DNA of 64,000 nucleotides from Azolla caroliniana (taxonomy: Eukaryota; Plantae; Polypodiophyta): positions 7,750,001 through 7,814,000 of the forward strand of contig JBHGNT010000020.1 of the NCBI GenBank assembly GCA_043228905.1, written 5' to 3'. Positions within the stretch are counted from its first letter, which is position 1, and each line of letters begins with the position of its first letter. Below are positions 1 to 24,644 of this stretch, piece by piece. Below the pieces are notes generated by a model, which saw only the letters and a program-made list of their open reading frames with translations, was not told where the DNA came from and made no database searches. The position numbers and the translations under genes were made by a program.

Positions 1-1435
1 TAAGGGGAACTTCTCCGACATTTGTGATCGGATGCGGAGTGTCGTCTCCAGTTGCGACTACTCCCGGTTGTATCGGTTTTTCAAGGTATGAGAACCACTC
101 CTTATGGCTCGTCATGTGGTTTGACGCGCCGGAGTCTACGTACCACACCTCGTCCGATCTCGGGGTGGTCTGTTTCATTGAGTTTGCTTCGTGTCTCGTC
201 ACGAAGGCAGACCCTTCTCTGGCTCTCCCAGAGTCTTCGGCGTAGTGTGATCGCTGCCGATTTCCCTTGTTGGTATGTCCGGAGCCATTTCCGGAACCGG
301 TTCTCTCCGAATCGGCGCGCTTCTTCCAACACTCACTTTCCCTGTGGCCTTTCTTGCCACAGTACTAGCTCTCTGCGATGGCCTTCCCTTGCCTGTTCTC
401 ATCGCATCGACTCCCCCTGTTTCCGGAGGGTCCGGAGTTGCTGTCGGCATCACTTCAGTGCCTTCTTCCTTGATCTCGTCGGCCGCCTCCATTGCGCGCC
501 GACTCGCCTCATCCTCCATTTCCATGGGGCCTTTCTCCCTCTGTGTACAGCATTCTGATGTTGGTGTGCGTGCTTGTAGACACACCCACGTGGTTCTCCT
601 CTACCAGGAGCATTGACTGTAAGTCGAAAAAGGACGGCGTATTCTCTCGGGTACACATAGCCATTCGGAACGCTCCGAATTTCGACGCCAAACCTCCGAT
701 TTTCGACGCAAAGCAGTATAATACCCTGCTCGCCGATTGCTCCCATGACGGGAAGTCTCTGTGTGTCGATTCGGGTGCCGCGTCATTAGCTCCTTCGACA
801 TAACTGCAGTAACCGTGCCCGAGCAGGTACTGGTGCATCTTGTAGGACCAAGACGCGTAGTTGGTTCTATCGAGCTTCTCTGTTGGAAGCGAGCTCGCCA
901 TGCCTCTATCCATCGTTCTTCTTGTTCTTCTTCCTCAAGCTGTGTCGGCTGCAGAGAGGTTCTCAACCCTCGCGCTCTTATACCATGTAAAAAGTAATGT
1001 GCGGAAGCAAGTATGAAGACCGAACAGAAGGAAGAAAACTCAGGTTTAATGGAGAGCTTGAGCTTACGCAGTTTACGCGGGAGAGACAGAGAGAGAGAGA
1101 GAAACACAAGAGGTATATTCAAAAAATACACAATCTCTATTCACCACACTCTATACATATGTGTGCTCAATGAACACTTTTATACAAGTCTTAGAAGGAC
1201 TGACAGAAGTACCAATAGTACTTCAATGCTCATTAAGAGCTCCTACACTAACTCCCAAATATATTCCTCATGGAATATCTTTCCTAACGGCCTCCCGGTT
1301 TACGCACTGATCCGGCCCTACCTACGCACCGGTCTGCGTACCGGTTTACGCATTCGGCCTAACCGATCGGTCCCAACCGATCCGGTCCTCGGCTTCTTCA
1401 GCCGATCCGGCCAATGTTGAGCTTGTCTCTCAACA
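1..1435 (-). mobile_element. Ty1/copia element A, 5' part (LTR, PBS, gag); continues beyond window start
   Basis: LTR 986-1435 (TGT..ACA) closely similar to LTRs at 10717/16008; Met-type PBS 974-985; gag MDRGMASSLPTEKLDRTNY starting at 913, zinc knuckle and WYVDSGAS protease motif near 100-380; inserted into a gypsy gag (flank aatga 1436-1440). Confidence 0.9.
986..1435 (-). repeat. 5' LTR of copia A (450 bp)
   Basis: Follows PBS tacca (981-985); ends ctcaaca; aligns to LTRs of the element at 10717-16400. Confidence 0.9.
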
Positions 1436-2197
1436 AATGACCATATCCACCGTTTCCCCTTTCACGCTATTGTTGTTGAGCGTTGCCCGTATGGGTCGGC
1501 GTAACGCTGGCAAAAATGTCTCTCGAGCCTCGTCCTCCGCGGGGCTCCGTTCTAGTTTCCGCCGTAAATTTTGGAAACGTAAGCAGAAGTCTGTGATCGT
1601 CTCGGTCGGCAGCTGCTTAATCGTGTAGAACTATCCGAGGATTTCGCGTTGTGGAACCCTCCGATGGAAGAACAACAAGAAAGCGGATTGCAGCTGATCA
1701 AAGGTTGTGATGGCTGCTAAATCCATCTGTGAGTGCGAAAACGCCGCTCACCCATCCAATGTTAACCTGAACTCCGTGATTTTTTACTGGTGCGCTACCG
1801 CCTCCGAAAGGCTCTGCGCCATGTGGTTCACATTCCATACATTAAGGAACATGCGAATATGGGTTGTGGCGTCGGTTTCGCCGTTAAAGCGGGGAAAGGC
1901 AAAGGCCATGTTGGGGGCTACTGTGGGTCGGGAAAGACCATGGGGTGGCTGAGGTGAGCGTGCTCCCTGCGTATCGTCGAGGTATTTGGAGAGCAAAGAA
2001 TCACCTTTGTAATCACGGCAGGAAGTACTGAGGTCGCTGAGGCGAGGCTTTTGCCGTGCGCGTTCCTTTGCCTGGCGTGTGACAGACCTTGTGATTGGCC
2101 AGTCTTGTCGTGTTGGTTCTCTGGGGCGTCTGTGGCTAAACATCCATTCGTTGTTGTTCGTCTGTGAGAAGACACAGATCACCGGGCGTGCCAAAAG
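1436..2197 (-). pseudogene. Ty3/gypsy (Tat-like) leader and degenerate gag
   Basis: Gag-like FPRFNGETDATTHIRMFLNVW...TFDQLQSAF with stops; PBS TGGCACGCCCGG at 2193-2182 (Arg-tRNA type, typical of the Tat/Ogre group). Confidence 0.7.
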
Positions 2198-2904
2198 TGT
2201 TACCGATTAGGAACACGGTCTGCGGTCAGTCCTTCGACTTAGACCTCCAAGTGACTGTGGAACAACAAATGGTGGCGTCTATGCGTAATGCGTAGGGGAA
2301 TGTTCCCCCCTAACCTATCAACGTATAAGGGAGACGGCTACAACCGGCTCCTTATCAGTGGTTATACTCACGTTCTTACACGCTCAGGTATTCCAAACAC
2401 ACAGTAGATTAGCCATAGATATACACAGACTTTCAGAGAAGATAGAATTCTATTATGATACGCTTCTTTACATTCCCAAAATACACGCTGCCTCTATCAG
2501 AGGTTTTCTGCCCTTTATATACGCAGGGTCAATTTAGCCGTTCAGGGTGAAAGCATGAGAGTGGAAACAATTAGCTATGTCCTTGACATAGCTAATTAGC
2601 TATGCAAAAGCTACCATTGCTAAATAGTCATTTTAGTAAAAAGCCATCATTAATAAATTAACTATGCAAAAAACCACCATTGAAAATACTAGAGTGTTTT
2701 AATTACATATGTAAATTAGTGCCATAAATGTGCAACATAAACGTGCAACATAAATTGATATGTGCACCATAAATGTGTACCATAAATTATATATTGAATT
2801 CCTAGGTCCATTATGCATGATCCTTTGCCACATCATGTAGGCCATCTCTAGTTGAGTATTGTGGGTTAGTTGCTACCACTGTTGCTAAACCTTATTGAGT
2901 CCAC

Positions 2905-3420
2905 TTGCCGCCACTCTACACTTAGGGGCTGCTACTGTGCATTCCAAGCATCATCAAAGAGCTGTTCAATCTGACGGGGTTCTCTTCTCTGTGCCACTCT
3001 ACACTCAAGGGCCGCTACCGTGCGTTCCAAGCATCATCAAAGAGTTGTTCAATCTTACGGGGTTCTCTTCTCTGTGCCACTCTACTCTCAGGTGCCTTCT
3101 CTGTGTGTTCCAAGCATCGTCGGTAACTGTTCAATCTGACAGGGTTCTCTTCTCTGTGCCACTCTACACTCAGGTGCCTTCTCTGTGTGTTCCAAGCATC
3201 ATCGGTAACTATTCAATCTGACGGGGTTCTCTCCTCCATTGCCATCATTCTACACTCAGTTGCCGCTACTGTCCAGTCCTAGATTGCTTCCACATTTTGA
3301 TTTGACGGAGTTCACTCATCCAACGGCAACATTCTACACTCAGTTGTCGCCATTGGTAGGTCCTGGATCGCCTCCTCAACTGTTCGATCCAACGGAGTGA
3401 ACTCCTCTACTGTTCGGTCT
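2905..3420 (+). repeat. Tandem repeat, ~82-83 bp unit, about 6 diverging copies, upstream of the transposase
   Basis: ctgtgccactctac... recurs at 2989, 3072 and 3154, with degenerate copies on both sides. Confidence 0.85.
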
Positions 3421-3564
3421 TGGATCGCAATAACTTTCTGTCTATTGATTATCTTGTGTATTGTTGTGTCTAATCTTGTGTATTGTGGAATATTTTTGTG
3501 TATTGTTGTTGCCCATAGCCATCTTAAATACTTGTTTTTTTTTCTGGAAATTTAGGGTTTTAAT

Positions 3565-6500
3565 ATGTCCAGCCAAATGGAAGGGGAAGAAGGGTGTTTA
3601 GAATTACCCCTCAATGATCATAAGGATAGGGATGATGCTATCAGGACACAACAAGCCATACGAAACTATTGGGCAGAAAAAAAGAAGGAAACATCGTCAA
3701 TTGTTGAAGGATACGAAAGCCACACTCAGTAAAGGTAAGGATAGTTTAACTGAGAATGTAAGTAATGCGACTACCATCATAGAGAGAAAGGTTGTAGACT
3801 ATTTCAATGTTCAAACCAAGCACATCAGCAATGAAGAAAAGAAGGTAGTACTTTATGGAATATGTAATGATCCATCGATAAAGGACTTAGTTGATTGTGA
3901 TGGTCTTAATGCAAACATATCATCTATTTTAGTAAATAATCTTCGTAATAGTTTCATATCCATGAGCAGGTCAGAAGATGATCTTGTCTTAAAAAGGTCT
4001 AGTCTAATGATGTTACTTAATAGTGATGTTGACGATATAAACATCAATGAGCTATCTAAGGTAATTGGTGTTAGTAGAAAAACAGTGTACAATACAATGA
4101 ACCGTATAATTTCCTCGGGTGAAGGAACTAGTCTACTAAAGCTAACTACAAGATGTAAGCCAATGACACCCATAACATTTGAAATCAAGGATGTAATATA
4201 CATCACAATGTTTTGGACTAATGAGAGTAGGGTTTCACCCAATAAAAAGGATTTATGCAGGAAACATGTTGGAAGAAATCAATACGAGGAGCATCCCATT
4301 CATCTTCTTGATGTACCTCAGGTATTTACATTTATCTCAACATTTGTTTTGACTCTACATGGAAAGTTAATTAGCTCAGTTAGCAGAAAAGCTAATTAGC
4401 TTATCAATTACATTTACCTCAGTTAGCTACTAGGATAACTACTACATAGGTAACTGGCTACTCTCAATAGCTACTACCATGATAGCTAATTAGTTATTCT
4501 CAATAGCTAATTTAGTTACTACCAGATAATTAGCTACCAAAATAACTAACTAGCTACCATGATAGCTAACTAGCTACCAAGACAGCTAATTAGCTACTAG
4601 GATAGCTAATTTCGTTATTACCAGCTAATTAGCTACTAGGAAAGCTAATTACCTACCATGATAGCTAATTAGCTACTAGGACAGCTAATTAGCCACCATG
4701 ATAGCTAATTAGCTACTAGACCAGCTAATTAGCTACCATGATAGCTAATTAGTTACTAGGAAAGCTAATTAGCTACCATGACAGCTAATTAGCTACTAGG
4801 ACAGCTAATTAGCTACCATGATAGCTAATTAGCTACTAGGACAATTAATTAGCTACCATGATAGCTAATTAGCTACTAGAATAGCTAATAAGCTACTAGA
4901 ACAACTAATTAGCTACTAGAACAGCTAATTAGCTACTAGAATAGCTAATTAGCTACTAGGATAGTTAGCTAGCTACTAGGATAGTTAGCTAGTTACGAAA
5001 ATAACTAATTCCCCTTTATTATGCAGGTCGATTTATTTATTAGGTTCAAACGAATGCATCCAAATATCAAAGTTCAACTACGAACATTCGAGTCTCTTAA
5101 GCCACACTTTGTGAGACGCTTAAAGGATCGATACACATGTTGTTGCATTTACCATGTACAGATGGGTTTTCTGAAGGACTCTGTTAATCCACTACATCAC
5201 CATAGCGCATCCCTAACTAATACAGTTTGCACATGTGGGTGCCCAATCTGTCGATCAAGCCCGCAAGAGGAGTGTAAATCATCTGAGCACGTTATCTCTT
5301 CCATGAGTTATTTATTAGATTCAATATTGTGTCCGAGAGAAATTGACGCTATCTTCTATATTCATAAATGTGTCATGGGTTTATGTCAAGATTGTGGCCC
5401 TACTAGATTTAGGTGGTGTCCAAAGGAATTGAGTAGTGAAATATTGATCTCTGTGAAGTTATTTGAGTCAGTGAACACCAATTTCGAAGGAAAGGTGTGT
5501 AAAAGAAAGGATCTAGTTCGGAAGATGCTTAAACCAAGGGATTTGGTGTCTCTGTTTGTAGTATCTCTAGGAAAGTTCATTAAACACAACTTCATTTATT
5601 CATGGCAGGCCCATCAGTTTAAGACTTGCATATCTGATTTCCCAAATGATGTAGTAGTCTCAGTAGTAGATTTCGCAGAGAATTATACTTTCAAGTAGTA
5701 GAATGAAATTCAATCTATGCATTGGTGTTCAGTTCAGGTAACCATTTTTGTGCACATAACATATTTTCGAGTTTCAGATGATGTTAAAAAAAAAATTCAT
5801 TTCTTTATTTCTGATGATAAGAAGCATGATACCGTGTTCGTCCGACACTGTTTTAAGTTACATTGGCAGTGGTTATTAGCTCAACGTTTGGAGCTTACTC
5901 AACATTGGGTCTGGTCTGACGGAGTTGCGTCACAATTCAAGGCTCGACGTCCATTTTATTTTGTGGGGAGGTATCCTGCTATAACAGGTTTGGAGATGAG
6001 ATGGAATTTTTTTGGGTCTGGCCATGGTAAAGGTGAACATGATGGTGCAGGGGCTGTTATAAAGCGGGCAGTTACCCATGAACAACTAAAGACAGATGGT
6101 GTGCACATGAATTGTGCATCACATGTAGTTGAATTTTTAAGAACAAATATGTCAATGAGTGCAACGGGTGTTTATTCCTCGCAAGTCCGAGATATCAAAC
6201 GTGAATTTTGGGAAGTGAAGATAGATGAAGTAAATAGGGAGAAGACCTGGGAGTGCCAAGGAATTCCCGAATTGCGATCTCTGCATGCTGGTCGCGGTTA
6301 TTCAAGGTTGGATGGTCATTGTATTGCGGTTAGAGAATTGACTTGTTTTTGCTTCCATTGTGTGCAGGGAAATTGGAGATATTGTCTAAACAAAGCATAC
6401 ATTCAGAATTGGGAGTATCACACTCTGAATGATAAGGAAGCAGTTGATGGAGAAACAGGGCAGAATGTTGACTTCACATATGAGGGACTTGGAGATACTT

Positions 6501-6859
6501 TGAGTGATGTCCTGAACGTTGGGGATAACTTCGCTGTAAATGCTGAAGAAGGCAATTCAGAGGGTGCTGATTTCTATATATTGAAGTGCACAGTTAGTAA
6601 ATAGTGTGCGAGGCAGAATATTGTAGATGCATGGGGAAATTTTGTATCTGCCGGGACATTCTACATTGAAGGCCTTTTTTATGCAAAACTAGATGACTAC
6701 GAATATGTGTACAGGCTGTTAGAAGACAAACCAACGGCGTACATGTACTCTCATTTGGTCAGGTGCATCAACATCCCAATGTTAGAATACAATAGTTGCT
6801 CAGGTTTATACACTGTTGGTGCTAATGTGTATGAATGTATTTACAATAGTATGCCATAG
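3565..6859 (+). pseudogene. Sola2-type transposase, two exons (3565-4321, 5027-6859)
   Basis: GT..AG intron 4322-5026 joins LLDVPQ|VDLFIRFKRMHPNIK in phase 0; Cys clusters CCCIYH and CVMGLCQDCG; catalytic motifs VDFAENY, QSMHW, WSDGVASQFK, FFGSGHGKGEHDGAG; frameshift in the A-run near 3680; TAG stops at ~5696-5701 and 6602. Confidence 0.85.
4370..5000. repeat. Array of 20-bp units with AGCTAATTAGCT core (alternating -ACCATG / -ACTAGG variants) inside the transposase intron
   Basis: atagctaattagctaccatg and acagctaattagctactagg repeat in register from ~4560 to 4990. Confidence 0.95.
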
Positions 6860-7206
6860 AATTTGTAGCCACAAGTAGCAATTACCATGTTCTCTTGTAA
6901 AACAAACATGTATTTCGCGAAAACAGTTAAATAAATTCGTTTGAGAATCAATTTCTTGTATATAGTCTGCTTTCTGTGCTTCTTTCTCAATAAACATGTC
7001 TTTTTTGTTAAGTTTTAAGTTATAAGTTATAGCGAAATAGTCATCAGTAGCTAATTAGATGTACAAATGTAGCTAATTAGCTGTCAATAGCTAAATAGTC
7101 ATCTCAAATTACAATCTGCAACATATTCCTCAAATTACACAGTAGATAAGTACAGTGGGAACAAGTAATTAAATTCTTCATTGAATAATGTCATCTCTTT
7201 ACATAT

Positions 7207-8200
7207 TTATAAATTACCATTGGAAATGTCTACAAATCTCCTATAAAGAGCTAAGCTCTTGCTAGTCAGTGGAACAAGTCTACATATATTATTCGCATAT
7301 GGAGCTCGGTATGGAGTCCACAACCATGCACCTAGTTGGCAGCTCACTGTTTGCACCAAGTACTGTTCAGGCATTTCCTCGGGTAGAATGAGACAGCATC
7401 TCCGAATATTGAAGTAGTGCCAGAAATGTTCTGTATCCAAAATCAATGTGTTGTCGACATTATATTCAGGCCAGGTAGCCCAAAAATCAAAAAGTCTCTT
7501 GAATCTTGCAGCTTCCATTTGCTCACAATTTTCTCGTGCCCATTGACCTTTAAAACAACTTCGCCATTTTGGGAAGAATCTTGCTAAACACTTCCACACA
7601 TCTGATTTTGGTTTTTCACTCCAAATAAACAAATCAAAGTATTGCACAACCCACTCTAGAAACTGATTCGCGTCCCTCCTTGGCTGCATATATCTCACAC
7701 TCATCAAGACTTTATCAAGCTCCAAGATCAAGGCTCTTCTTTTGACTTCTAGTGGTTTACGTTTCCATTCCTGAAACTGAGCCACTGTTACACCATTTTC
7801 TGGTAGGACATGATCAATCTCAATAAGCTTAGATTCGGCCGACACAACTAGCATCCTTTTCCTCTTCAAACCCCTAGTAGACTGTGTTGGGCCTGGCTTC
7901 ACATTCTAGTGCTCTTGTTTTGTCGACTTAGTTATCAATCCTTGGATTACCTCGGTGCATGTAGTTACTAATCTACTCGATATCAGTCCACTGGTATCAC
8001 ATGTTGCATCTACCTACAACACCAAGTCATCCGTGCAACATGCTTGATCAACTTGTGTGACCAGATCACTTGTGTTAGTTGCTACATCTACTTTCAAGAT
8101 GGGGCCCTTTAAACACGCCGCAACATCAACAATATCCACGCTGGCATTGTCCTTACGAGCAATAGAATCAAACCCTTTAGACTCTCCAATATCAGAAAAC
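7207..8200 (-). pseudogene. FCP1/NIF (HAD-family CTD phosphatase-like) domain ORF carried by the Sola2 element
   Basis: RALILELDKVL...FLEWVVQYFDLFIWS...WARENC...FKRLFDFW...YNVDNTLILD follows the NIF/FCP1-homology motif order; ORFs 7207-7902 and 8014-8262 are in the same frame, separated by two TAG stops; 5' boundary uncertain. Confidence 0.7.
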
Positions 8201-8984
8201 ACCAACATATTCACACTCACAAAGTAACTAACAGTCTCACAAAACAACATCCTGAACATCAAAGAGTTTCAGTCATAGAACAACACTCTTCAAATTATCT
8301 TGGAAAAATATCATAGAGTTCCATTACATAATGTGGATCAAGCAACAACCAATCTGAGGTTTTACTTGTCCAACATGATAGTAAAACTTCATAAAACCCT
8401 AGCAAAATCCCTAAGCTAACAATCATATCCAACTAAACAGTATTTCGCTCCACTACGTCTGGGCCCCTTGACCGAGTAACTGGTCTTGTTCCCGATCGTG
8501 GCCCCTTCTTCAGCCTTTTTCTGGTCGGTTCCCCATTTAGCCTTGCTTCTTTCACCCAATGCGCAAGTGTGTCCTCCTCCAACAACCTTCCCATCGCCTT
8601 AGCAGCTAATTGCACATCAGTCGTTTCTTGAACTAGCTTTTCAAGTATAGAGGGATCTGTTTGGACATTTTCAGTAGTTGGGCTCGGTGGGGTGGAATCA
8701 AGGTCTTGAGATTCGAAGAAATGTTGCATCAAGTGTTCATAAACATTGTTGTTGTGAACCTCAGTTTTACATGTTGTTTCCACTATTTCATGGCATTTCA
8801 CATCATTGCCTAATTCAGTACACTGTTCCAAAAGAATAGGGTGGAGCTGATCTGAAGGAGATGTGATAGCAGGACTCTTACTTTCACCCACGTTGGCAGC
8901 AATATCCTCATCTGTTGCAGCGTCATTAGCACCAAACACATCATGTGCCGTCCTTAATCCACAAGATTCTACAATAGCATGGCA

Positions 8985-10310
8985 GCTATTTAGGATAGCT
9001 AATTAGCTACTTTACTAAAGTATGGTAGAAGCTAGGATAGCTAATTAGGATAGCTAATTAGCTACTTTACTCAACTATGGTAGTAGCTAGGATAGCTAAT
9101 TAGCTACTATGGTAGCTAATTAGCTACTTTACTCAACTATGGTAGTAGCTAGGATAGCTAATTAGCTACTTTACTAACTATGGTAGTAGCTAGGATAGCT
9201 AATTAGCTAATTTACTCAACTATGGTAGTAGCTAGGATAGCTAATTAGCTACTAGGATAGCTAATTAGCTACTTTACTCAACTATGGTAGTAGCTAGGAT
9301 AGCTAATTAGCTACTTTACTAACTATGGTAGTAGCTAGGATAGCTAATTAGCTACTTTACTAACTATGGTAGCTAATTAGCTACTTTACTCAACTATGGT
9401 AGTAGCTAGGATAGCAAATTACCTACTTTACTCGACTATGGTAGTAGCTAGGATAGCTAATTAGCTACTTTACTCAACTATGGTAGTAGCTAGGATAGCT
9501 AATTAGCTACTTTACTCAACTATGGTAGTAGCTAGGATAACTAATTAGCTATTAGGATAGCTAATTAGCTACTTTTCTCAACCATGGTAATAGCTAAGAT
9601 AGCTAATTAGCTACTTTACACAACTATGGCAATAGCTAATTACCTAGTAGGATAGCTAATTAGCTACAATGATAGCTAATTAGCTACTTTCTCAACTATG
9701 TAGTAGCTAGGATAGCTTATTAGCTACTAGGATAGCTAATTAGCTGCCAGTAGCTAATTAGCTACTAGGATAGCTTATTAGCTACTTTACACAACTATGG
9801 CAGTAGCTAATTAGCTACTAGGATAGCTTATTAGCTACTTTACACAACTATGGCAGTAGCTAAGTAGCTAGTAGGATAGCTAATTAACTAGTAGGATAGC
9901 TAATTAGCTAGTAGGATAGCTAATTAGCTAGTAGGATAGCTAATTAGCTTTTTTACACAACTATGGCACTAGCTAATTAGCTAGTACCATAGCTAATTAG
10001 CTAATTAGCTAATAGCTAATTAGCTACTTTATAGAACTATGGTACTAACTAATTAGCTAGTAGCTAACTAGCTGCCAGTAGCTAATTAGCTACTAGTAGG
10101 ATAGCTAATTAGCTAGTAGCTAACTAGCTGCCACTTAGCTAATTAACTACTGTAGTAAACTATGGCAGTAGCTAATTAGCTAATAGGATAGCTATTAGCT
10201 GCTTTAATCAACTATGGTAGTAGCTAATTAGCTACAATGATAGCAGCAAAATAGTTTCCATACTTTTTACAACTTAGCTAATTAGAAAAGACTAAGCTTA
10301 TTAGCTATAG
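8985..10310. repeat. Array of ~42-bp and 20-bp units with TAGCTAATTAGCTA core filling an intron of the accessory gene
   Basis: ggatagctaattagctactttactcaactatggtagtagcta repeated, with shorter variants. Confidence 0.95.
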
Positions 10311-10716
10311 TATGGTATACCTGTTAGTTTTCTCCACTCATTTGGTAGAGTTGTACTGCAATCTCCCAAACAGAATGCAACAATTCGACAGGCATGTTGA
10401 AAACAAAGCAGATGGTATGTGTGGTTGCATGGTTGTAGGTGAACCAACAAAGACACAATTTGGTCCTCCACACCTAACCCACAAGCGATGCAACGTGCTT
10501 GAACTGTCAATAAATCATTTTCTGGTTCTCCTTCATTTGGTAAGGGAGCAAGAATGTTCAGGTCCAAATCCTGTTTGGTCCTTACCATTCCCTCCACAAA
10601 ATGTAGCTGCTTCTTAAGGTAGCTAACTACCTGTTCTTGATAAATGTATTGTTCCTTCAACACAATAGAGAAATTTACCGATTAATTATTCCTGTCTGAC
10701 CCCTCTAATTCAAGCT

Positions 10717-13700
10717 TGTAGAAAGTAGCGTGCGGAAGCAAGTATGAAGACCGAATAGAAGACAGAAAACTCAGGTTTAATGGAGAGCTTGAGCTTACGT
10801 AGTATACTCAGGAGAGATAGAGAGAGAAAGAAGAACTATATTCAACAACAAAAGATCTCGATTCACTACTCTGTACATATGTGTGTTCCATGAACACTTT
10901 TATACAAGTCCTCGAAGGACTGACCGAAGTACTGACCGTACTTCAATGCTCATTAAGAGCTCCTACACTAACTCCCAAATATATTCCTCACGGAATATCT
11001 TTCCTAACGGCCTCCCGGTTTACGCACTCGGCCTAACCGATCGGTCCCAACTGATCCGGTCCTCGGCTTCTTCAGCCGATCCGGCCGATGTTGAGCTTGT
11101 CTCTTAACACTCCCCCTCAAGCTCAACTCGAGGCTCTTTGGAATCCTCGGGCTCACAGCTCCGGTTCCTCCTGGCTTCACGCCTCGCTCGCACTCCTCGA
11201 CCTGTTCGACTCCGCGCGCTTCGACCCTTCCGGTCGGCTTGTCTGCTCATGCGTCCCTTATTAGCTCTTCTGCTGTTGCGGTGTTGACGCTTCTCCTGTT
11301 GCCTATTCTTCCGCTTGGGCCTCGGTTGATTCAGCGTATCTGAATCAAACATCCGAATCGACTCGGCTACCTCTGATCGGTTTTTGCTCCCGTTCGAGTT
11401 TGCTGTCTCCAACTCCTCTTCGGTCTTCTCGCCCTTAGTGGCGTCATCTTCCCCTTGCGTGGTTGGCTTCGGCTCTCTCCTTCAGCTGCTCCCCTTCTGT
11501 CCGCTTTCAGACTTTTCCGCGGGTCCACCCTCGGCTTCTTCAGCCGATCCGAAGTCGAACTCAACAACCGAGTCAACAGCCGAGTCAACCGACTCGGTGT
11601 CGCGGTCTCCGCTCCTTTCCTCCTGCCTTGCTTGGTCGTTCGGGACTATTCTCCCCCTCAAGTTTGGCACGTCGAGGTGACGCAATCCGAGCGCACCTAA
11701 GAATTGCCGCAACTTGTCCAGACCAAGAGGCTTGGTGAAGATGTCGGCAATTTTCCGATCCGTCGGAACGTACTAAACTTCGACTTCACCGGAAAGGACA
11801 CGCTCACGGACGAAATGGTAGTGCACCTCAATGTGCTTAGTCCGTGTGTGGAAAACGGGGTTTTTCGCGAGCTGGATGCTGCTGAGGTTGTCGCAGTAGA
11901 TCGTCGTCGGATCTGACACCTCCTCTTGCAGGTCCTTAAGTAGCCGCTTCAACCATATGGCTTCGCATGTCGTGACAGCCGCTCCTCGGTACTCAGCTTC
12001 GGTGCTTGATAGTGCAACTGTCGGCTGCTTCTTACTGCTCCACCCGATCGCGGCACTCCCGAGGGAGAATGCGTATCCGGATGTGGATCGGTGATCGGCG
12101 GCGTTGCCAGCCCAATCAGCATCGGTGTAGCCGACTAATTGGACGGCTGCACTGGTCTGATATACCAGTCCCCGGTCCTTAGTGCCGTTGACATACCGAA
12201 GTATGCGTTGTGCACATTGAAGGTGCACCTCAGTAGGTCGCGGCATGAACTGACTGATCACTCCGGCCGCATAAATGAGGTCGGGTCGAGTGATGGTCAA
12301 GTATATGGGGCTTCTGACAATTTGTCGGAACCTCATCGGGTCGCATACCTTTCCCGTATCGGGACGAAGCTTGACGGTTCTGTCCAGGGGAGTCAAGACG
12401 GACTTACAGTCGGCCATCCCGAGTTTGAAGAGCATACTCAGCACGTAATGACTTTGGCTGATCAATATGCCTTCGGGGGTACGGATCACATCGATCCCAA
12501 GGAAGTAATAAAGGTCCCCCAGATCCTTCATGTCGAACGATGCCGCAAGCTGGAGCTTCATGCGGTCGATTTCACCTAGGTCGGCGCCGGTGATGACCAA
12601 GTCATCAACATATAGTAAAATACTAACCGGTCCGAGTCGACCTTTTCGGATGAACAGGGAAGAGTCCGATTTTGACGTGACGAAGCCCATCCGACGCAGT
12701 TGTTGCGTGATCTTCGCGTTCCAGGCACGCGGGGCTTGCTTTAGTCCGTAAAGGGACTTCTTCAGTCGGCATACTGCCGAGGAGTTCGTTCCGGAGTGAA
12801 AACCGGGGGGCTGTACCATGTACACCTGTTCCTCAAGGTCACCTCGTAGGAACACATTCTTTACATCCATCTGATGTAAGTGCCACCTCTCGGCCGCATC
12901 TACTGCGAGCAAAACACGGATGGTCGTCATTTTCGCGACCGGCGCAAACGTCTCATCGTAGTCCATGCCGTGTTTCTGCGCGTAGCCCTTTGCCACTAGC
13001 CGAGCCTTGTACTGGTTGACCGAGCCATCGGTGTTGTACTTGACCTTGTACACCCACCTACACCCGATCGGTTTAACCCCTTTTGGTGCGTCAACTAGGT
13101 CCCAGGTCTCGTTCTCCGCCAATGCATGCATCTCTTGCTCCATCACGGCATGCCAATTCGCGTCTTTAGCCGCTTCTACGTAGCTCTCCGGCTCACGCAC
13201 TTTCACTACACGGGTCATGTACGTATAATGATGCGCCATGTACTCGTTGTATCCGAACCTCAAAACAGGATTCTTCTGGCGAGTAGACCGGCATAATCTC
13301 ACATTAGTCGATGTCGAGGCCTTTTCGGTCGACGCGGTCTTCACCTTTAAAGACCCGTCACCGGTTCCCTCGGAGTCTGACTCGCGTTGGTCTGACTCGT
13401 TCTTATCCGTGCCGGAATCCGACACCTTCTTCTTCCCTTTCTGTTTGTGCGTAAGCCGTCTCCTTGGAATGCACGACCGAGTTTCCACTACTCGCCGGCT
13501 CTTCATTGGACTGGTTGTACCGACTCAGTCGTCCAATTGGTCCACTTAAACGGAGTGAAATCGGACTCTCTTCGCGGGTCTCGATTTTGGGCTCATCCGG
13601 AGGCATCTCGGCCTCGCTGACCTCATCGTCAAAGCTTGGATTGGAGTCGGGGTTCGGAGTCGGGGGCTGGTACCAGGACGCAGACTCGTCAAACACAACG

Positions 13701-16400
13701 TCGCGGCTAACACGCGCTTGTTTGGTGCGAGCGTTGTAGCACTTATAACCCTTCTGCTCGTCCGAGTAACCGACCAAGATGCACTTCTCGGCCTTTGCGT
13801 CCAGCTTCCTCCTTTTCTCCTTCGGTAGATGCACATACGCAATGCTACTGAACACCCTCAAGTGTCGCAAGTTCGGCTTTGTTCCGAAATATAGCTTGTG
13901 CGCCGACACTTTGTCTCCGATCCGGTTCTGGATATATACCGCGGTCCTTACTGCCTCGGCCTAGTAGAACTTGGGCAAGCTCTTCTCCTCCAGCATTGCC
14001 CGTGCCGCTTCCACAACTGACCGATTCTTCCTCTCGGCCACACCGTTCTACTCCAGCGTGTATCTACAACTGAATTTGCACCGAATTCCCATTTGTTGTA
14101 GATAACCGTTGAATTGACCCAAAAAGTACTCTTTCCCGCCATCCGACCGCAGGCACTTGATCTTTCGTCCCGTTTCCGTTTCCACGAACCCTTTGAGGTC
14201 ACGAAAACAGTCGAAGACTTCGCTCTTCCTCTCAATGAGGTAGATCCACGTGTGCCGCATGTGGTCGTCGATGAAGGAAACGAAATATCGGCTCCCGCCA
14301 AGACTAACGTTTTGTGCCGGCCCCCATACATCGGAGTGTATAAGGTCGACCTTGTTCCTGCTCCGGTTTCGCTCGTTGGGGAAAGGAAGTCGGTGGTTCT
14401 TCCTAAGCTGGCAGGCTTCACAAATTTGTGCCTTTCGGCCACTAAATTTGGGCAATCTGAACACTACCTGTTTCGATTGTAGATCTTGAAGCCGCTGGTA
14501 GTTGACGTGGCCTATCTGCTTGTGCCACAAGTCGATGTCCGACTCGGATGTTTGTCACTTCGTGAACATTGCGGTGCCGCCATCAGTGGAGTCGAGGATG
14601 AACATCCTCCCGTCTCTGCGCCCTTGCGCAATCACACGACCTTCTTCCTCAATGAAGCACCCGAGGTGTGTAAACCGAACCTCCATCCCTTGGTCGACGA
14701 TCTGTCCGACCGAGACCAAGTTCTTCGTGATTGTCAGAACATGCAACACGTTCATGAGTTTCCCTTTCTGCCCGACATGGCTAAGGGGAACTTCTCCGAC
14801 ATTCGCGATCGGATGCGGAGTGTCGTTTCCAGTTGAGACTACTCCCGGTTGTATCGGTTTTTCAAGGTACGAGAACCACTCCTTATGGCTCGTCATGTGG
14901 TTTGACGTGCCGGAGTCTACGTACCACACCTCGTCCGATCTCGGGGTGGTGCATTTCATTGAGTTTTCTTCGTGTCTCGTCACGAAGGTAGACCCTTCTC
15001 TGGCTCTCCCAGTGTCTTCGGCGTAGTGCGATCGCTGACCATTTCCCTTGTCGGTATGTCCGGAGCCGTTTCTGGAACCGGTTCTCTCCGAATCGGCGTG
15101 CTTCTTCCAGCACTCACTTTCCCTGTGGCCTTTCTTGCCACAGTACCAACACTCCGCGATGGCCTTCCCTTGCCGGTTCTCATCGCTTCGACTCCCCCTG
15201 TTTCCGGAGGGTCTGGAGTTGTTGTCGGCATCACTTCGGTGCCTTTTTCCTTGATCTCGTCGGCCGCTTCCATTGCGTACCAACTCGCCCCGTCCGCCAC
15301 GACCACGGGGCCTTTCTCCCTCCGTGTACAACATCTTGCTGTCGATGTGCGTGCTCGTCGACGCACCCGCGTGGTTCTCCTCTACTAGGAGCATCGACTG
15401 TAAGTCGAAAAAGGACGGCGTATTCTCTCGGGTACACACTGCCGTTCGGAACGCTCCAAACTTCGACGCCAAACCTCCGAGACAGATCTGGACCATCTCG
15501 CTCTCCTCGATGTTCACCTCTATGGAGCCGAGGGAGTCGCAGATATCCTTGATCTTCGAGGTATAGTCCGCCACCGACAGGTCGCATTGTCGTAGGTTGC
15601 TCAACTCCTGTCGGAGCTGAAGCTTCCTGGCTGTGGTGCTCGCGGCGAAAATCTTCTTCAGATTTTCCCACGCACCCTTCGGCGTCTTTGCATCCCGGAC
15701 ATAGCTCAATAGTTGTTCGCCTACACAAAACGCGAAGCGGTATAATACCCTGCTCGCCGATTGCTCCTACGACGGGAAGTCTCTGTGTGTCGATTCGGGT
15801 GCCGCGTCATTAGCTCCTTCGACATAACTGCAGTAGCCGTGCCTGAGCAGGTACTGGTGCATCTTGTAGGACCAAGACGCATAGTTCGTTCTGTCGAGCT
15901 TCTCTGTTGGAAGCGAGCTCGCCATGCCTCTATCCATCGTTCTTCTTGTTCTTCTTCGTCACTGTGTCGGCTGCAAAGAGGTTTTCAACCTTCGCGCTCT
16001 GATACCATGTAGAAAGTAGCGTGCGGAAGCAAGTATGAAGACCTAACAGAAGACAGAAAACTCAGGTTTAATGGAGAGCTTGAGCTTACGCAGTATACTC
16101 GGGAGAGACAGAGAGAGAAAGAAGAACTATATTCAACAACAAAAGATCTCGATTCACTACTCTATACATATGTGTGTTCCATGAACACTTTTATACAAGT
16201 CCTCGAAGGACTGACCGAAGTACTGACCGTACTTCAATGCTCATTGAGAGCTCCTACACTAACTCCCAAATATATTCCTCACGGAATATCTTTCCTAACG
16301 GCCTCCCGGTTTACGCACTCGGCCTAACCGATCAGTCCCAACCGATCCGGTCCTCGGCTTCTTCAACCGATCCGGCCGATGTTGAGCTTGTCTCTCAACA
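10717..16400 (-). mobile_element. Full-length Ty1/copia element B
   Basis: 393-bp LTRs 10717-11109 and 16008-16400 (11 differences counted by eye); TSD aagct (10712-10716, 16401-16405); PBS tggtatcagagc 16007-15996; PPT from 11110. Confidence 0.97.
11104..15937 (-). pseudogene. Copia B gag-pol (Gag, zinc knuckle, PR, INT, RT, RNase H, C-terminal extension)
   Basis: CWYCGKKGHRESEC, WYVDSG, HSDVWGP, RSDGGKEY, YVDDL, YTDADWAG, ADIFTK; several nonsense codons and a frameshift. Confidence 0.95.
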
Positions 16401-17234
16401 AAGCTCTTGTTGCGCAACCTATTCCAGATAATGCTTGATTAGCACATTTTACCCTTAAAGTTATTTATAACACAATCACATACCAACAAAACAATAGTTA
16501 CCTGATTCTTATTTCTAATCGTTCTAACAACGGAAGTAACTTTGCTCTCCATTGCAGAAGCCATTGTGGGTTTCTCTAAATCGGTCTTAAAAATTGCCAA
16601 TGTCTCACAGGCTTCATGGACATTTTTTAGCATATAGCTAACCAATGTCTCACCTATATCATTGACATTGGCTTTCCTTGGGTGTCGGTGTGGTGTATGC
16701 CCCCGGTTTTGCTGGGAGTCGGCAGTTGCATCAACAGCTGCCATGCTCCAAAATCTGTCTATTTTTTGTGCCAAGGTCCCCATCTTTCGACATCTTTTAC
16801 CGATGCCTCACCATAGACTGCCCAAGCTACCCTATACATTTCAGGGTCTCTGGATTCCTTCGTTGTTTTGCAGTACTCATATGCAAATGCTCTAGCAAAT
16901 GAAACTGATAACTCATTGTTGGCTGAGATCTCCTGATGAACTTTCTAGTGCAGCCTCATGCAGTCATCGTACAAGTCGGCTTGTACATGCTTCAGCTTGA
17001 CCTTGCCTTCTACTCTAGGCACTGTATATACTGTCATCCAGTCTACATCACTAATCAATTTATCACTTAGGACAGCAGGGTCAACACCCTCGAGTGACAA
17101 TCCATAGGTGTTGTGGAAGTCCTCCTTTGTCTCGCAAAATTTTGCGAAGTTTAGCACTTTCGGATACGGAGGAACGAGCCATCTTAAATATCATTTCAGA
17201 AATCAGAAATAGTGCAAAATCAGAATATGTCAGA

Positions 17235-17690
17235 ATTAGAAACCCCAATCAACAACAACAGAAATAGTGCAAAATCTTTAACTTAGCAAATCTGAAACCC
17301 TAATCATAATTTGTATTCAGAAATTTGAAATTAAAAAACCCTAATCAAAATCTGTAATCAGAAGTTTGAAATCAGAAACCCTAATCAAAATCTGTAATCA
17401 GAAGTTTGTAACCAGAAACCCTATTAAGAAATTCTAATAAAAAATTTATAATCAAAAACCCTATTTAGAAATTCTAATCAGAAATTCAAATCTGTAATCA
17501 AAATTTGTAACCAAAAACCCTATTCAGAAATTCTAATTAGAAATTTATAATCAAAAACCCTAATAAGAAATTTCAATCAGAAACCCTAATCAGAAATTTC
17601 AATCACAAACCCTAATCAGAAATTCTAATAAGAAATTTATAAACAAAAACCCTAATCGGAAATTTCAATCAGAAACCCCAATCATCACTA
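17235..17690. repeat. Degenerate AAACCCTAAT/AGAAATT repeat (telo-box-like) in an intron of the accessory gene
   Basis: About a dozen aaaccctaat-like motifs interleaved with cagaaatt. Confidence 0.8.
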
Positions 17691-18333
17691 AAGACAAGAT
17701 TAAACACAAAAAAGTAATATAAACACACCTGCTGCTACTCCCTGATCTGGGAGACATCCTTGTATGGGACTCCAAGGACTTCGCCCCATTCGATTTTGGG
17801 GAAATATGAATCGACACCAAAGTTTAGACAATAGTCAAAAAGAAAAAACAAATGTTTGGGGTTTCTATAACTGAAACATACCTGGACGATGATTGAGTAG
17901 GTTCTGTGTTGTAGCTCTCAATCTGCAATGTCGATTTTCTACTGCTGCGGGAGCTATGTCTGCGTTCGTGCTCTGAGTACTCCATCTGCATTCAAAATCA
18001 AACTTAGGCTAAACAGGAAATTGATGACATTGAAGTCGACCTTAGATGATGGTGTTATTCCCCAAGCTCCACTACGTCTGAAACAGAAGTTCAAATATTT
18101 GAGTTTTTTCATAAATTAGTTTTTCAAATATTTGATTTTCCCACAAAAAAGACTAGCTAAACAAATAGCTAATTAGCTATGGCCATTTTAGTAGCTAATT
18201 AGCTAAAATAGTGTTTCCACTCGCATGCTTTTACCCTTCACGCTTCCTACGTGAACCGTTACATGCATTATGATCTTATATTATTTCCTATTCCTACGCT
18301 CTTGTCCGTCGGTTACTATTCCGGCAGACAACA

Positions 18334-21300
18334 GATCATCTATAGACGCTTGGGCCGTCTTAAAGAAGTCAAGAGAGACATCCTCATCTTCAAACACCAT
18401 GTCGCTTTCATCCTCAAATCTTGCCCTCGATAGCATATCTGCCATGGCATTGTTCTTCCCTGAAATGTGGTGAATCTCTGGGTTCATTGATTTGATGTAA
18501 GCAATCCACCTTAGCATAGCTAGGTCAGGTGTTGCACATCCCGAAACCATCCCTAGGATTGGAAGGCAATCCGTCTCTATTACCACCTCTGACCCGATTA
18601 GGTAATCTTTATCCGCCTTTACTGCGGACACAATACCGCAAAGCTCACGTTTTACTTGGGCGTATCCTCGTTGTCGCTCGCTTAAGACCTTGGCTCCGAA
18701 CCGGATGGTGTAGCGTGTACCATCCTCTCCTTCTTGGTTTATGACCCATCTGATCCCTGTTGGACTCGTATCTACCATCACGTAGATGGGCACCCCTTGT
18801 ATACGGCTTTTCGTAAAGCTGGTGCTGCTACCAACATTCCTTTGAGCCTCTTCATTGCCTCTGTGTGCTCTTCCTCCCACTTGAACTTCCGCCCCTTCTT
18901 GAGTAGCCCATACAAGGGCTCGGCTACGTGAGCATAGTGCGGGATCCAGAGGTGGTAGAATGCACAGGCACCAAGAAATCGCCTCACCTCTGTTTGTGAT
19001 TTACATTTTTCCCTCATGTCTGTGATGGCGTCCACCTTTGCCGGGGACGGCTTCCGTCCGTACGCCTCGCACAAGTGTCCCACCACAAGGATCTCTGGTT
19101 GGCCGAATGCTGATTTCTCACCCGAGAAGGTCAAGCGTGCATCTTTGAGTCTTTGTAGAACCTTCTCGCAATCGGAGATGTGATATGCCACAAAACGTCT
19201 GCACCCATCCTCGTCCAAGGTTTCATCTCTCTCCGCTTCAGAGCACCCTTTTATGGGGACGTCATCGAGGAACGACATGGTGATGTTGGGGATGCAATCT
19301 CTCAATACCTTGTTCATTGCACTTACCATGTGGGCTACAGAGTTAGTGCCTCCTTGTGGCAAGGTACACATTCGCACTAGGCCGATAGGGGTCCGCATCG
19401 TTGTGATGTCCCTACTCTCCACAGCTAGTTGGAATTGATCATACCCCGAGTATAGATCACCAATCGAATAAATAGACCTTCCAGCGAAGGCCTCGGCGAA
19501 TTCGTCAACGCTCGGTCCGACCCCGACATTTCGAATTGTCAGTTGATTAACAGGTTGTAGGTCCTGGATGAAACGTAATGTGCCGTTCTTCTTTGGCATA
19601 GTGAACCACCGATTCGAGTATGGGGCGCTTGATAGCTCTTGTACTTTGTTTGCACCTTGACTTTCCTCGCTTCCTCAATCAACCGCCCAAGCTCTTCGAT
19701 GGCGGTGTACATGTCAACTGAGTTGACTGGAATTACCTTGTCTTCATTGAGGCCCGAAACGACTACCCTCTCCATCTCTCTGAGAGTGTCTTCGAACGAG
19801 ACTACCTCCATGGCACCGCTTATGGTGTCATCTTCCCCCGATAAATTACATTGTTTGAGATACCTTTCGTATCTCTTGGCCCTAGACTTATCTCTATCAC
19901 TTAAACTAGTAATTTTACAAGCTCCATTTTCGGAGAACCAAAATTGTTTCCTATTACATTTAATAGTTTTACAAGGGTTTAGGGTCTTAGTTTGCCTCGG
20001 GCTATTGCGGCCCCACTCTTTAATAGCCTGAATCAAAAATCCTCTCGGCTATCCCCTTTGAGGGAGGCTCGATTGCGCTCATGGTTGGGCCTCACCGAAA
20101 GGAATTGGACCGAATGCTTCCCATATTGGCTCTTGACCCTCGCATATGCCGACCCGTTCTCTAGCACCTTCGTCTCCATGCGAGCCACCGTTATGTATGG
20201 TTCACCCAAGATGATGGGGTGCGAGGACGTCTCTTGAACAAAGAAATGTTGATCTATTTCTACATCCCCCACCTTGACACGTACATTCGTGCAAGCCCCC
20301 GTATAGCTCCTCGGTTGCTCAAATCGCCGCTCTAATCTTCCACCCGTGCTTCGTGTTGATCGGACACTTTCCCTTTTTATAAAAGTCCATGGACATAAGG
20401 TTGATCTCAGAGCCATGGTCGATCAATGCTACAACCGGCTCTTTTACATCTCCGACCCGTACCGGTGTCTCCGTTGTCGCTCTCGTCCAATGCGGCCTCG
20501 TGTAGTGACTGTCCGCATAGTCTTCGTCTTCCTCGGGAACCTCAGTTGACAATGCATTTACAATCGCGGGCTTTGCCACTTCTTGCTCCGTCGAGAGCCG
20601 CTTCCTCTTCATTAGGTCGATGATGACCTCGTGGAATTCTTTCTTGGCAATTCCGAGGACCTCTCACAGAGTAAACTCTACGCGACTATCGAGGATCCTC
20701 TCCTCCACTACCTTCTTCAAGTCCGTTGCTTGTTCGATCTCCGAGCAAAGCTTGAAGTTGGGGGGGTTCCCCTTCTCTTTCCATCTTTCATCGCGTGCTT
20801 GAGTCTGGTTCGGCTCTTCCCTTCTTCGTGCACCTCGAGCGTCATATTTCCTTGATGGACCGGCTCCCTCGTCATTTCCTACCTTCTTCTCTTCTACCAT
20901 TACTTTGTAGTCTTGGCAAGCGGCTTCCACTAAGCGTGTCTTTTCTTCCACCGGATCCTTCCACCCAGTTGCTTCTTGGACCCTTCTTTCCGCTTTGTCC
21001 GCTTCTTCTCTTTTGAACTTCCCCTTAGAGAGGCTTCCAAGGATTGACAGCCAAAAGTCAAACTCTTTCTCCTCTTGCCTCCTCACCTCTTTCCCCACTC
21101 AGATCCCAGCCAACGCCGAGTAGTGGACGGCTTCAACATGTCGTGCTTTGGCCTCCTCCATTAGCCTTCTCATGCCCCCTCGGCCTTGATTCAATCCCAA
21201 GGGGTGCCTTGTCTCCATCGAATAGACCCTATTGTTCCAAAGATAGACAATATCCTTTCTTAGAGCCTCTTGGAAGTCTCCACACTCCCTTCGTAGGTGG

Positions 21301-23998: not shown

Positions 23999-24644
23999 AC
24001 GTGTCAGTACTTCTGTCAGTCCGTATGGACTTGTATAAAATTGTTCACTGAGCACATCCTATGTACATATTGAGTATTACTTTTTAATTGAGTTTGTGTT
24101 TATTCTCTTTATCTATCTGTCTCTCCCGCGTATTGTGTATATTCAAGCTCTCCATTAAACCTGCATTTCTGTGTTCGGTTTTCTATTGCTTCCGCACGCT
24201 ATTCTTTTTACATGGTATCAGAGCACAAGGGTTGAGAACCTCTGCAGCCGACCTTAGCTCAAGAAGAAAACCTAACATTTGTAAAGAACAAGAAGAACAA
24301 AATGAATAGAGGCATGACTAGCTCGCTTCCTACCGAGAAGCTCGACAAAAACAACTACGTGCCTTGGTCGTACAAGATGCACCAGTACCTGCTCGGGCAT
24401 GGATATTGGAGCTATGTCGACGGAGCCAATGACACAACACCTGATTCGACACACAAAGATTTCCTAGTGTGGGAACAGTCGGCGAGTAGAGTCCTGGGGG
24501 CTTCACTATGAAAACTTGTATGATAGCACGTGAGTTCATCAAAAGGGGTTTAAATTAACCATTGAGATACAAAACGTATATAAAAATGCATAAAAAATAT
24601 ATTTACATAAGGGTATTATCAATTATGCTATAGAAAAAAATTAC

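What the first reader, a model, noticed from the sequence alone, without database searches (positions are those of the whole stretch)
7207..8200. Transposon-borne FCP1/NIF pseudo-phosphatase
Seen: the motif order of the FCP1-homology domain, but DxDx(T/V) reads ELDKV and the terminal DD reads DT; a KRKR basic patch precedes the domain. Established: FCP/SCP enzymes need the first Asp as nucleophile and act on the Pol II CTD or similar substrates. Inference: a dead enzyme acting as a phospho-peptide reader or decoy. It is unclear whether this is the last exon of the RING gene or a third gene.
Basis: partly seen in the sequence, partly recalled or inferred. Interest (0 to 1): 0.7.

Follow-up and report, generated by a model that had tools for sequence, protein, structure and literature searches.

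The report
Fern transposon's RING-linked dead phosphatase
A jumping DNA element with hundreds of copies in this (probably fern) genome carries a second gene whose phosphatase-like domain has lost key catalytic residues in nearly every copy yet is kept by selection; it is likely the last exon of a RING-finger gene and likely a docking module, not an enzyme.

Summary
Observation confirmed. 7207-7905(-) is a NIF/FCP1-type HAD domain (Pfam E 6e-7; confident model, best matches SCP1, TIM50, UBLCP1), with ELDKV, DT and a KRKR patch. It lies in a Sola2 DNA transposon (2545-18236, 25-bp TIRs, 4-bp TSD). ELD is the family state: 236 ELD against 6 DLD sites genome-wide; the five DLD copies read are old and broken. 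The domain is under purifying selection between subfamilies (dN/dS 0.27) and drifts after insertion, so it serves the element. This copy is dead (two stops, altered acceptor, Copia insertion). The domain comes from a DxN-type NIF branch that already lacked the general acid, not from FCP1/SCP. Within a fern clade the nucleophile was lost more than once, while the phosphate-contacting Ser/Thr and Lys stay (22 of 22). The sub-branch shared with Ceratopteris also lost a Mg ligand and the cap. Adiantum gene models show the same order: unknown domain, RING, NIF. A phase-compatible splice joins the exons here, but no RNA shows it. Best reading: a non-catalytic docking module of a transposon accessory RING protein. 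Pol II CTD reading is unlikely. Not found in the literature searched.

The parts
2545..18236 (.). Sola2 DNA transposon, about 10 kb without the nested Copia; 4-bp TSD TTCA at 2541-2544 and 18237-18240
   Evidence: 9 other full copies 10.4-12.7 kb, 8 of 9 with perfect 4-bp TSD
2545..2569 (+). left terminal inverted repeat (GGG...)
18212..18236 (-). right terminal inverted repeat (...CCC)
3602..6868 (+). Sola2 transposase, spliced (repeat-filled intron about 4323-5026); three premature stops in this copy
   Evidence: DDD core dN/dS 0.15
7207..8183 (-). exon G: 13-aa tandem peptide repeat region, basic patch, IEIDR segment, NIF pseudo-phosphatase domain; two premature stops and altered acceptor here
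7708..7722 (-). motif I ELDKV (nucleophile Asp replaced by Glu; acid/base Asp present)
7432..7437 (-). motif IV DT (direct Mg ligand replaced by Thr)
7855..7866 (-). KRKR basic patch, likely nuclear localisation signal (inferred)
   Evidence: similar patches in P0064, P0081
8433..8968 (-). exon F, acidic Ser/Thr-rich linker ending in a basic stretch; internal phase-1 donor at 8882/8881
   Evidence: dN/dS 0.51, no indel in 495 nt between subfamilies; donor kept in 57 of 59 copies
8984..10234 (.). intron array of palindrome TAGCTAATTAGCTA
4503..4991 (.). same palindrome array in the transposase intron (also at 2589, 18166, 18192 beside the TIRs)
10318..10654 (-). exon E, RING-H2-like zinc finger (below Pfam cut-off)
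   Evidence: dN/dS 0.37
10717..16400 (-). Copia LTR retrotransposon inserted into small exon D of the cargo gene; LTRs 97.2% identical; about 150-170 bp missing beside it
16502..17182 (-). exon C, domain A (unknown family, shared with Adiantum proteins); 1-nt gap in this copy
   Evidence: dN/dS 0.19
17728..17985 (-). two putative short 5' exons (17985-17881, 17785-17728); read by eye, not tested

Best explanation
The domain is a NIF/HAD fold with family-fixed loss of the nucleophile and one Mg ligand, carried and selected by a Sola2 transposon, and it is likely the C-terminal, non-catalytic docking module of one nuclear accessory protein (domain A, RING, linker, NIF) that would bind a probably phosphorylated host chromatin or silencing factor and bring it to the RING for ubiquitination or sequestration. 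Shown: fold, motif state across copies, element anatomy, selection between subfamilies and drift after insertion, fern-wide clade, repeated loss of the nucleophile. Inferred: loss of catalysis (from the Fcp1 mechanism), one spliced protein, E3 activity, phospho-binding, an anti-silencing role.
For: Against SpFcp1 (passages): Asp170 is E, Asp298 is T (both direct Mg ligands, the first also the nucleophile); Asp172, Thr243 (Ser), Lys280 and Asp297 are kept. 236 ELD against 6 DLD pattern matches genome-wide. DT in 60 of 62 distinct copies, DD in none. NIF dN/dS 0.27 between subfamilies, off-frames 1.3, p 1e-5; private changes neutral (21 syn, 68 nonsyn, 4 stops). In the 22-protein fern clade (100/99) Lys is 22 of 22 and Ser/Thr 22 of 22, while the nucleophile is D in 13, E 5, N 2, gap 2; the E-types are not one clade (AU p 0.003). 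Same domain order in Adiantum models: domain A E 4e-23, RING E 1e-9 to P0064; 9 of 77 models hold RING and NIF together. Exons C-D-E-F join in phase with conserved splice sites; phase-1 donor in F fits phase-1 acceptor of G. Intronic tandem motif arrays and a variable peptide repeat resemble VANC anatomy.
Against: No transcript shows the F-to-G joint. The 3' part of exon F that this splice would skip also looks coding (dN/dS 0.54, no indels), and none of its own donors fits the G acceptor directly. An in-frame ATG just before the acceptor is conserved, so a separate start is possible. The Adiantum proteins are computed gene models; 68 of 77 do not hold both domains. The RING scores below Pfam's cut-off. 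Ser and Lys may be kept for structure; Glu could fill the phosphate pocket, and HAD phosphate binding normally uses Mg. The cap is lost. Copies carry a C-to-T excess at CG, CHG and CHH (3.8, 4.5, 2.8 against 1.1 per 1000), so they are mostly methylated. Domain A has no known family.
Confidence: 0.42

Rival explanations
1. The protein is a transposition cofactor. It binds the palindrome arrays or the transposase, and the HAD fold is a plain scaffold with no phospho-specificity, as second proteins do in other two-gene DNA transposons (recalled: CACTA TnpA, Harbinger ORF1).
For: The palindrome also sits beside both TIRs (2589, 18166, 18192) and only inside elements (50-98 copies, 0 in flanks). 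Cap and metal site are gone. Selection acts at the element level.
Against: Pocket Ser/Thr and Lys are invariant across the clade. Sola2 elements elsewhere carry unrelated cargo (Fanzor; PMC3627910 passage), so this gene is not a general need of Sola2.
Confidence: 0.27
2. The NIF exon is a separate third gene or alternative transcript that makes a free decoy competing with a host NIF protein (DxN-type or UBLCP1-like) for its partners.
For: Single 353-405-aa open frame with in-frame ATGs and its own basic patch; exon F has its own stop; several Ceratopteris models hold NIF without RING.
Against: The stretch before the acceptor has 0 synonymous and 7 non-synonymous changes and sits in a region with 5 indel events, which is intron-like; there is little room for a promoter; Adiantum models join the domains.
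Confidence: 0.14
3. The domain is still a slow or atypical hydrolase that uses Glu as nucleophile with the Asp two residues on as acid/base, perhaps with the adjacent Lys replacing metal.
For: E-x-D-K is fixed in 29 of 29 readable database proteins; Asp at the acid/base site is a gain relative to the DxN parent.
Against: Both direct Mg carboxylates differ from Fcp1; the sister Ceratopteris family reads EVE and has a gap there; Asn versions exist in the clade. That D-to-E abolishes FCP/SCP activity is recalled; the paper read shows this only for D170N.
Confidence: 0.1
4. Neutral passenger: a captured host fragment that is decaying.
For: This copy is broken; 24 of 62 distinct copies have stops in the domain.
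Against: dN/dS 0.27 between subfamilies; intact in all 9 young full copies checked; shared signature with Ceratopteris at about 40% identity.
Confidence: 0.03

Closest known systems
Sola2 DNA transposons
   Same: 4-bp TSD, TIRs, transposase motifs DFAENY / HD / SDG..QFK / FF..HGK..DG.G as in the published Sola2 alignment. Sola2 with cargo genes is known (Fanzor, PMC3627910). Sola elements are reported abundant in the fern Azolla (PMC6786969 passage).
   Different: Cargo is a convergent multi-exon gene with domain A, RING and pseudo-NIF; not found in the papers searched.
DxN-type NIF proteins (C1271.03c-like; name recalled) and UBLCP1
   Same: Nearest relatives by sequence and tree; UBLCP1 is the best solved structure by profile (E 8.6e-15). 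Two host-type DLNG copies are in this genome and one relative is on a giant-virus contig.
   Different: First Asp is E, motif IV is DT, cap lost, fused or linked to RING, mobile; no UBL domain detected.
FCP1 / SCP1 / CTDNEP1 / TIM50 (NIF family)
   Same: Fold (VIA Z 13.9-16.4), motif II Ser, motif III Lys. TIM50 as a non-catalytic NIF receptor is a functional precedent (recalled).
   Different: No DxDx(T/V), no DD/DN, no SCP insertion domain, no BRCT; separate branch from the genome's SCP/CPL exons (98/97).
VANC / KIU anti-silencing proteins of VANDAL (MuDR)
   Same: Accessory gene in a DNA transposon, captured host domain, tandem motifs in introns with variable copy number, tandem peptide repeats in the protein (PMC5735166 section 9; PMC13317346 passage).
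   Different: Different superfamily; no sequence link to VANC or PMD found; binding and hypomethylation untested; the motif also lies beside the TIRs.

Membership tests
Sola2 | 4-bp target-site duplication | tested here: met
   window plus 8 of 9 copies with both ends perfect, 1 with a mismatch; 1 of 10 fetched lacked the left end; feature from PMC3627910 passage
Sola2 | TIRs with GRG...CYC ends (rule recalled) | tested here: met
   GGG...CCC, 25-bp TIR; the source paper was not held
Sola2 | Sola2-type DDD transposase motifs | tested here: met
   compared by eye with Additional file 10 of PMC3627910, part 1 of 2; no Pfam family exists for it
NIF/FCPH fold (PF03031) | Pfam hit above cut-off and HAD fold | tested here: met
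Active FCP/SCP phosphatase | DxDx(T/V) with Asp nucleophile | tested here: not met
   ELDKV; 236 ELD against 6 DLD; E first in 59 of 61 readable copies
Active FCP/SCP phosphatase | motif IV DD/DN Mg ligand | tested here: not met
   DT in 60 of 62, DI in 2; ligand role
Active FCP/SCP phosphatase | motif II Ser/Thr and motif III Lys | tested here: met
   S 61 of 62, K 61 of 62
Active FCP/SCP phosphatase | insertion domain after motif I (CTD proline pocket, recalled) | tested here: not met
   20 residues from motif I to the conserved Phe against 42-46 in other clade members; host SCP-like exons have the long form
Active FCP/SCP phosphatase | phosphatase activity on CTD | not testable with these tools
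   needs assay
UBLCP1 | N-terminal ubiquitin-like domain and DxDxT | tested here: not met
   no UBL hit on any cargo exon; motif absent
RING E3 ligase | C3H2C3 zinc-ligand pattern scoring as RING | tested here: inconclusive
   pattern present; zf-RING_2 E 0.043, below cut-off; best relative zf-RING_11 E 0.001
RING E3 ligase | E2-dependent ubiquitination | not testable with these tools
   needs assay
VANC-type anti-silencing system | tandem target motifs in non-coding parts of the element | tested here: met
   37 exact palindromes, all inside the element, 0 expected
VANC-type anti-silencing system | homology to VANC/PMD | tested here: inconclusive
   no Pfam, PDB or Atlas hit for domain A; its model failed
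VANC-type anti-silencing system | motif binding and sequence-specific hypomethylation | not testable with these tools
   needs EMSA/ChIP and bisulfite data

The most novel reading that the evidence does not exclude
Fern Sola2 transposons encode their own ubiquitin ligase whose substrate receptor is a dead HAD phosphatase that reads a host phospho-mark, and whose new domain A tethers it to the palindrome arrays of the element: an anti-silencing system that works by destroying host factors, evolved independently of VANC.
Probability: 0.15. Interest if true: 0.85.

Novelty: new variant of a known kind. Interest (0 to 1): 0.52.

Why it matters
What accessory genes of plant DNA transposons do is known for few cases. 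Here a recently expanded family (young copies 99.0-99.6% alike, some with transposase and cargo both open) keeps a three-domain gene whose relatives occur in Ceratopteris and Adiantum. It offers a testable case of a mobile pseudo-enzyme with a visible series of steps from DxN/DD to ExD/DT, a possible transposon counter-defence in ferns, and a new domain (A). It also means many fern 'FCP1 homology domain' gene models are probably transposon cargo, not host CTD phosphatases.

Tried and rejected
RNA: no RNA holder listed (the stretch sent was the RING exon plus repeat intron, not the NIF exon); two guessed RNA runs laid on a 10-kb intact copy gave no cover of the cargo exons; no evidence either way. 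Domain A: no Pfam, no PDB sequence hit, Atlas below 0.9, model pLDDT 40 and no fold match; this is not evidence of a new fold. An apparent likeness of exon F to the Adiantum linker was rejected (426 of 1000 shuffles as good). No second, DxN-type transposon family was found in this genome with two distant queries (lower-bound searches). The two host DLNG copies have no Sola2 transposase or palindrome within 1.5 kb; they are neither shown nor excluded as the source (AU p 0.17). Whether distant clade members lie in Sola2 elements could not be shown: one 2.1-kb contig without transposase, one scan empty. A transposase-NIF complex prediction was not run. Earlier scan notes: nothing. Literature searches without a description of this cargo; subscription papers and Repbase were not searchable, so a Repbase entry may exist. 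No paper found for D-to-E mutants.

Full report
Observation. The minus-strand frame 7207-7905 reads RGLKRKR, then RALILELDKVL, FIWSE, RFKRL and NTLILDTEHF. It scores above the Pfam NIF cut-off (E 6e-7). A model of an intact copy built on 47 sequences is confident (pLDDT 88.5) and matches SCP1, TIM50, UBLCP1, CTDNEP1 and Fcp1 best (Z 16.4-13.9; Foldseek E 3e-8 upward).

The element. Ten copies fetched with flanks share one unit that maps to window 2545-18236 once a nested Copia is removed. Ends are 25-bp TIRs, GGG...CCC, with 4-bp TSDs in the window and 8 of 9 copies with both ends. The transposase motifs match the published Sola2 alignment by eye (PMC3627910, passages and Additional file 10 part 1 of 2). 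The GRG/CYC end rule is recalled. A protein search gave 651 candidates, of which 150 were scored, all at 90% identity or more. Seven young copies are 98.8-99.6% alike, the window copy about 96.5%; three of nine have no stop in the transposase exon tested or in any cargo exon. The host is probably a fern: the named close relatives are Ceratopteris and Adiantum proteins. This is inference.

This copy is dead. It has two stops in the NIF exon, GAG for the CAG acceptor, a Copia in exon D, a 1-nt gap in exon C and three stops in the transposase.

The odd motifs are the family state. Of 88 locus hits, 62 were distinct: E is first in motif I in 59 of 61 readable, motif IV is DT in 60 and DI in 2. In 40 database proteins, ELDK was in 29 of 29 readable and DT in 31 of 31. 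Exact patterns genome-wide gave 236 ELD and 6 DLD. Five of the six were read: all belong to old subfamilies (73-79% identity), all carry stops, the three readable at motif IV keep DT or DI, both Asp codons occur, and with L083 they do not form one clade (AU p 0.004; two rows were partly unrelated DNA). They look like late reversions.

Selection. One young copy against the majority of ten older copies gave dN/dS 0.27 for NIF (29 synonymous, 38 non-synonymous; off-frames 1.3; p 1e-5), 0.19 for domain A, 0.15 for exon D, 0.37 for RING, 0.51 for exon F and 0.15 for the transposase core. The segment just before NIF gave 1.33 on 25 codons. Private changes in 58 copies are neutral (21 synonymous, 68 non-synonymous, 4 stops) and enriched for C-to-T. 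So the gene is selected while elements multiply and decays after insertion: it serves the transposon, not the host.

Origin. The 64 representative hits are DxN-type NIF proteins. I aligned 46 relatives, leaving out short fragments. Outside the fern group, motif I is D-x-N in most (Asn in 20 of 22). So the canonical DxDxT was gone before capture. Twenty-two proteins, grouped by eye before the tree, form one side of a 100/99 branch, also with the motif columns removed. This family is sister to Ceratopteris proteins with E and DT/DS (100/98; 99/97 without motif columns), and both have a short segment where others have a cap of about 23 more residues. Another E-type falls elsewhere (AU p 0.003) and two N-types exist, so the nucleophile was lost at least three times while Lys and Ser/Thr never changed. 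One outside relative lies on a giant-virus contig; the source of the capture is open.

Active site. In SpFcp1, Asp170 is nucleophile and Mg ligand, Asp298 a direct Mg ligand, Asp172 the general base, and Thr243, Lys280 and backbone amides hold the phosphate (PMC4436666 passages). Here the first two are changed and the rest kept. Loss of catalysis is therefore likely but not measured. A retained phosphate pocket is possible; Glu could also block it. Loss of the insertion argues against SCP-like CTD reading (role of the insertion recalled).

One gene or three. Exons C, D, E and F join in phase through splice sites kept in both subfamily groups. Between F and G lie 5 indel events and a non-coding pattern. 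The G acceptor is phase 1; the only strong phase-1 donor is inside F at 8882/8881 (57 of 59 copies). That splice would skip the rest of F, which also looks coding, so two isoforms, with and without NIF, are plausible. In Adiantum nelumboides, 77 related gene models show the order domain A, coiled coil, RING, basic patch, NIF; 9 hold both RING and NIF, 2 all five parts; motif I there is DLNG in 21 of 24. These are computed models. I put one gene at about 70%.

Mechanism. A basic patch, a RING-H2-like finger and a pocket-retaining dead phosphatase in one selected transposon gene suggest a nuclear adaptor or ligase. A 14-bp palindrome occurs 37 times in the window, only inside the element, in both introns and beside both TIRs, and 50-98 times in other copies (12-bp core). 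A 13-residue peptide repeat varies in number (frames of 353, 366, 379, 392, 405 aa). VANC genes show similar traits (PMC5735166 abstract and section 9), but the same arrays could be transposase sites. I give the docking-module model 0.42, a transposition scaffold 0.27, a free decoy 0.14, residual catalysis 0.10.

What is known. Sola2 cargo (Fanzor) and captured domains in VANC genes (PMC13317346 passages; PMC13547354 passages) are precedents. Sola abundance in a fern is reported (PMC6786969 passage). PMC9477723, PMC5751038 and PMC8774115 (passages) and PMC6911153 (no hits) add nothing on this cargo. Eight searches seen as listings found no description. Repbase, the original Sola paper and unread supplements of fern genome papers may hold one.

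Verdict. Real, family-fixed, selected and apparently undescribed; a new variant of a known kind. Interest 0.52.

Noticed in passing
window 26200-30639 (-): Intact 1479-aa chromodomain-bearing Gypsy polyprotein frame; the region matches flanks of other fetched loci at up to 94%.
   Followed up: partly
window 8200-8184 and upstream 40 bp (L031 9190-9250): About 60 bases around the NIF acceptor are almost invariant across subfamilies, with no synonymous change; suggests constraint at RNA or DNA level.
   Followed up: partly
window 2910-3272: 83-bp tandem repeat (4.4 copies) upstream of the transposase, variable between copies.
   Followed up: no
window 17288-17684: 13/40/92-bp AT-rich array with AAACCCTAAT units, close to the plant telomere repeat, in a presumed cargo intron.
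   Followed up: no
L061/L062 (G000 C15, 26 kb apart): Two near-identical intronless DLNG-type NIF frames, the only host-like members of the parent family found.
   Followed up: partly
L151: A DxN-type NIF protein (P0093) is encoded on a giant-virus MAG contig.
   Followed up: no
P0212: A Klebsormidium gene model joins leucine-rich repeats to a related Sola2 transposase.
   Followed up: no
P0101: A distant, long-branch NIF protein outside the fern clade also reads ELDG and DS: a possible convergent pseudo-enzyme; its locus was not found.
   Followed up: partly
window 1-2200, 18300-24000, 35000-64000: Largely nested Copia and Gypsy remains; no host gene seen among frames of 170 aa or more that were scanned (10 of 20).
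   Followed up: partly
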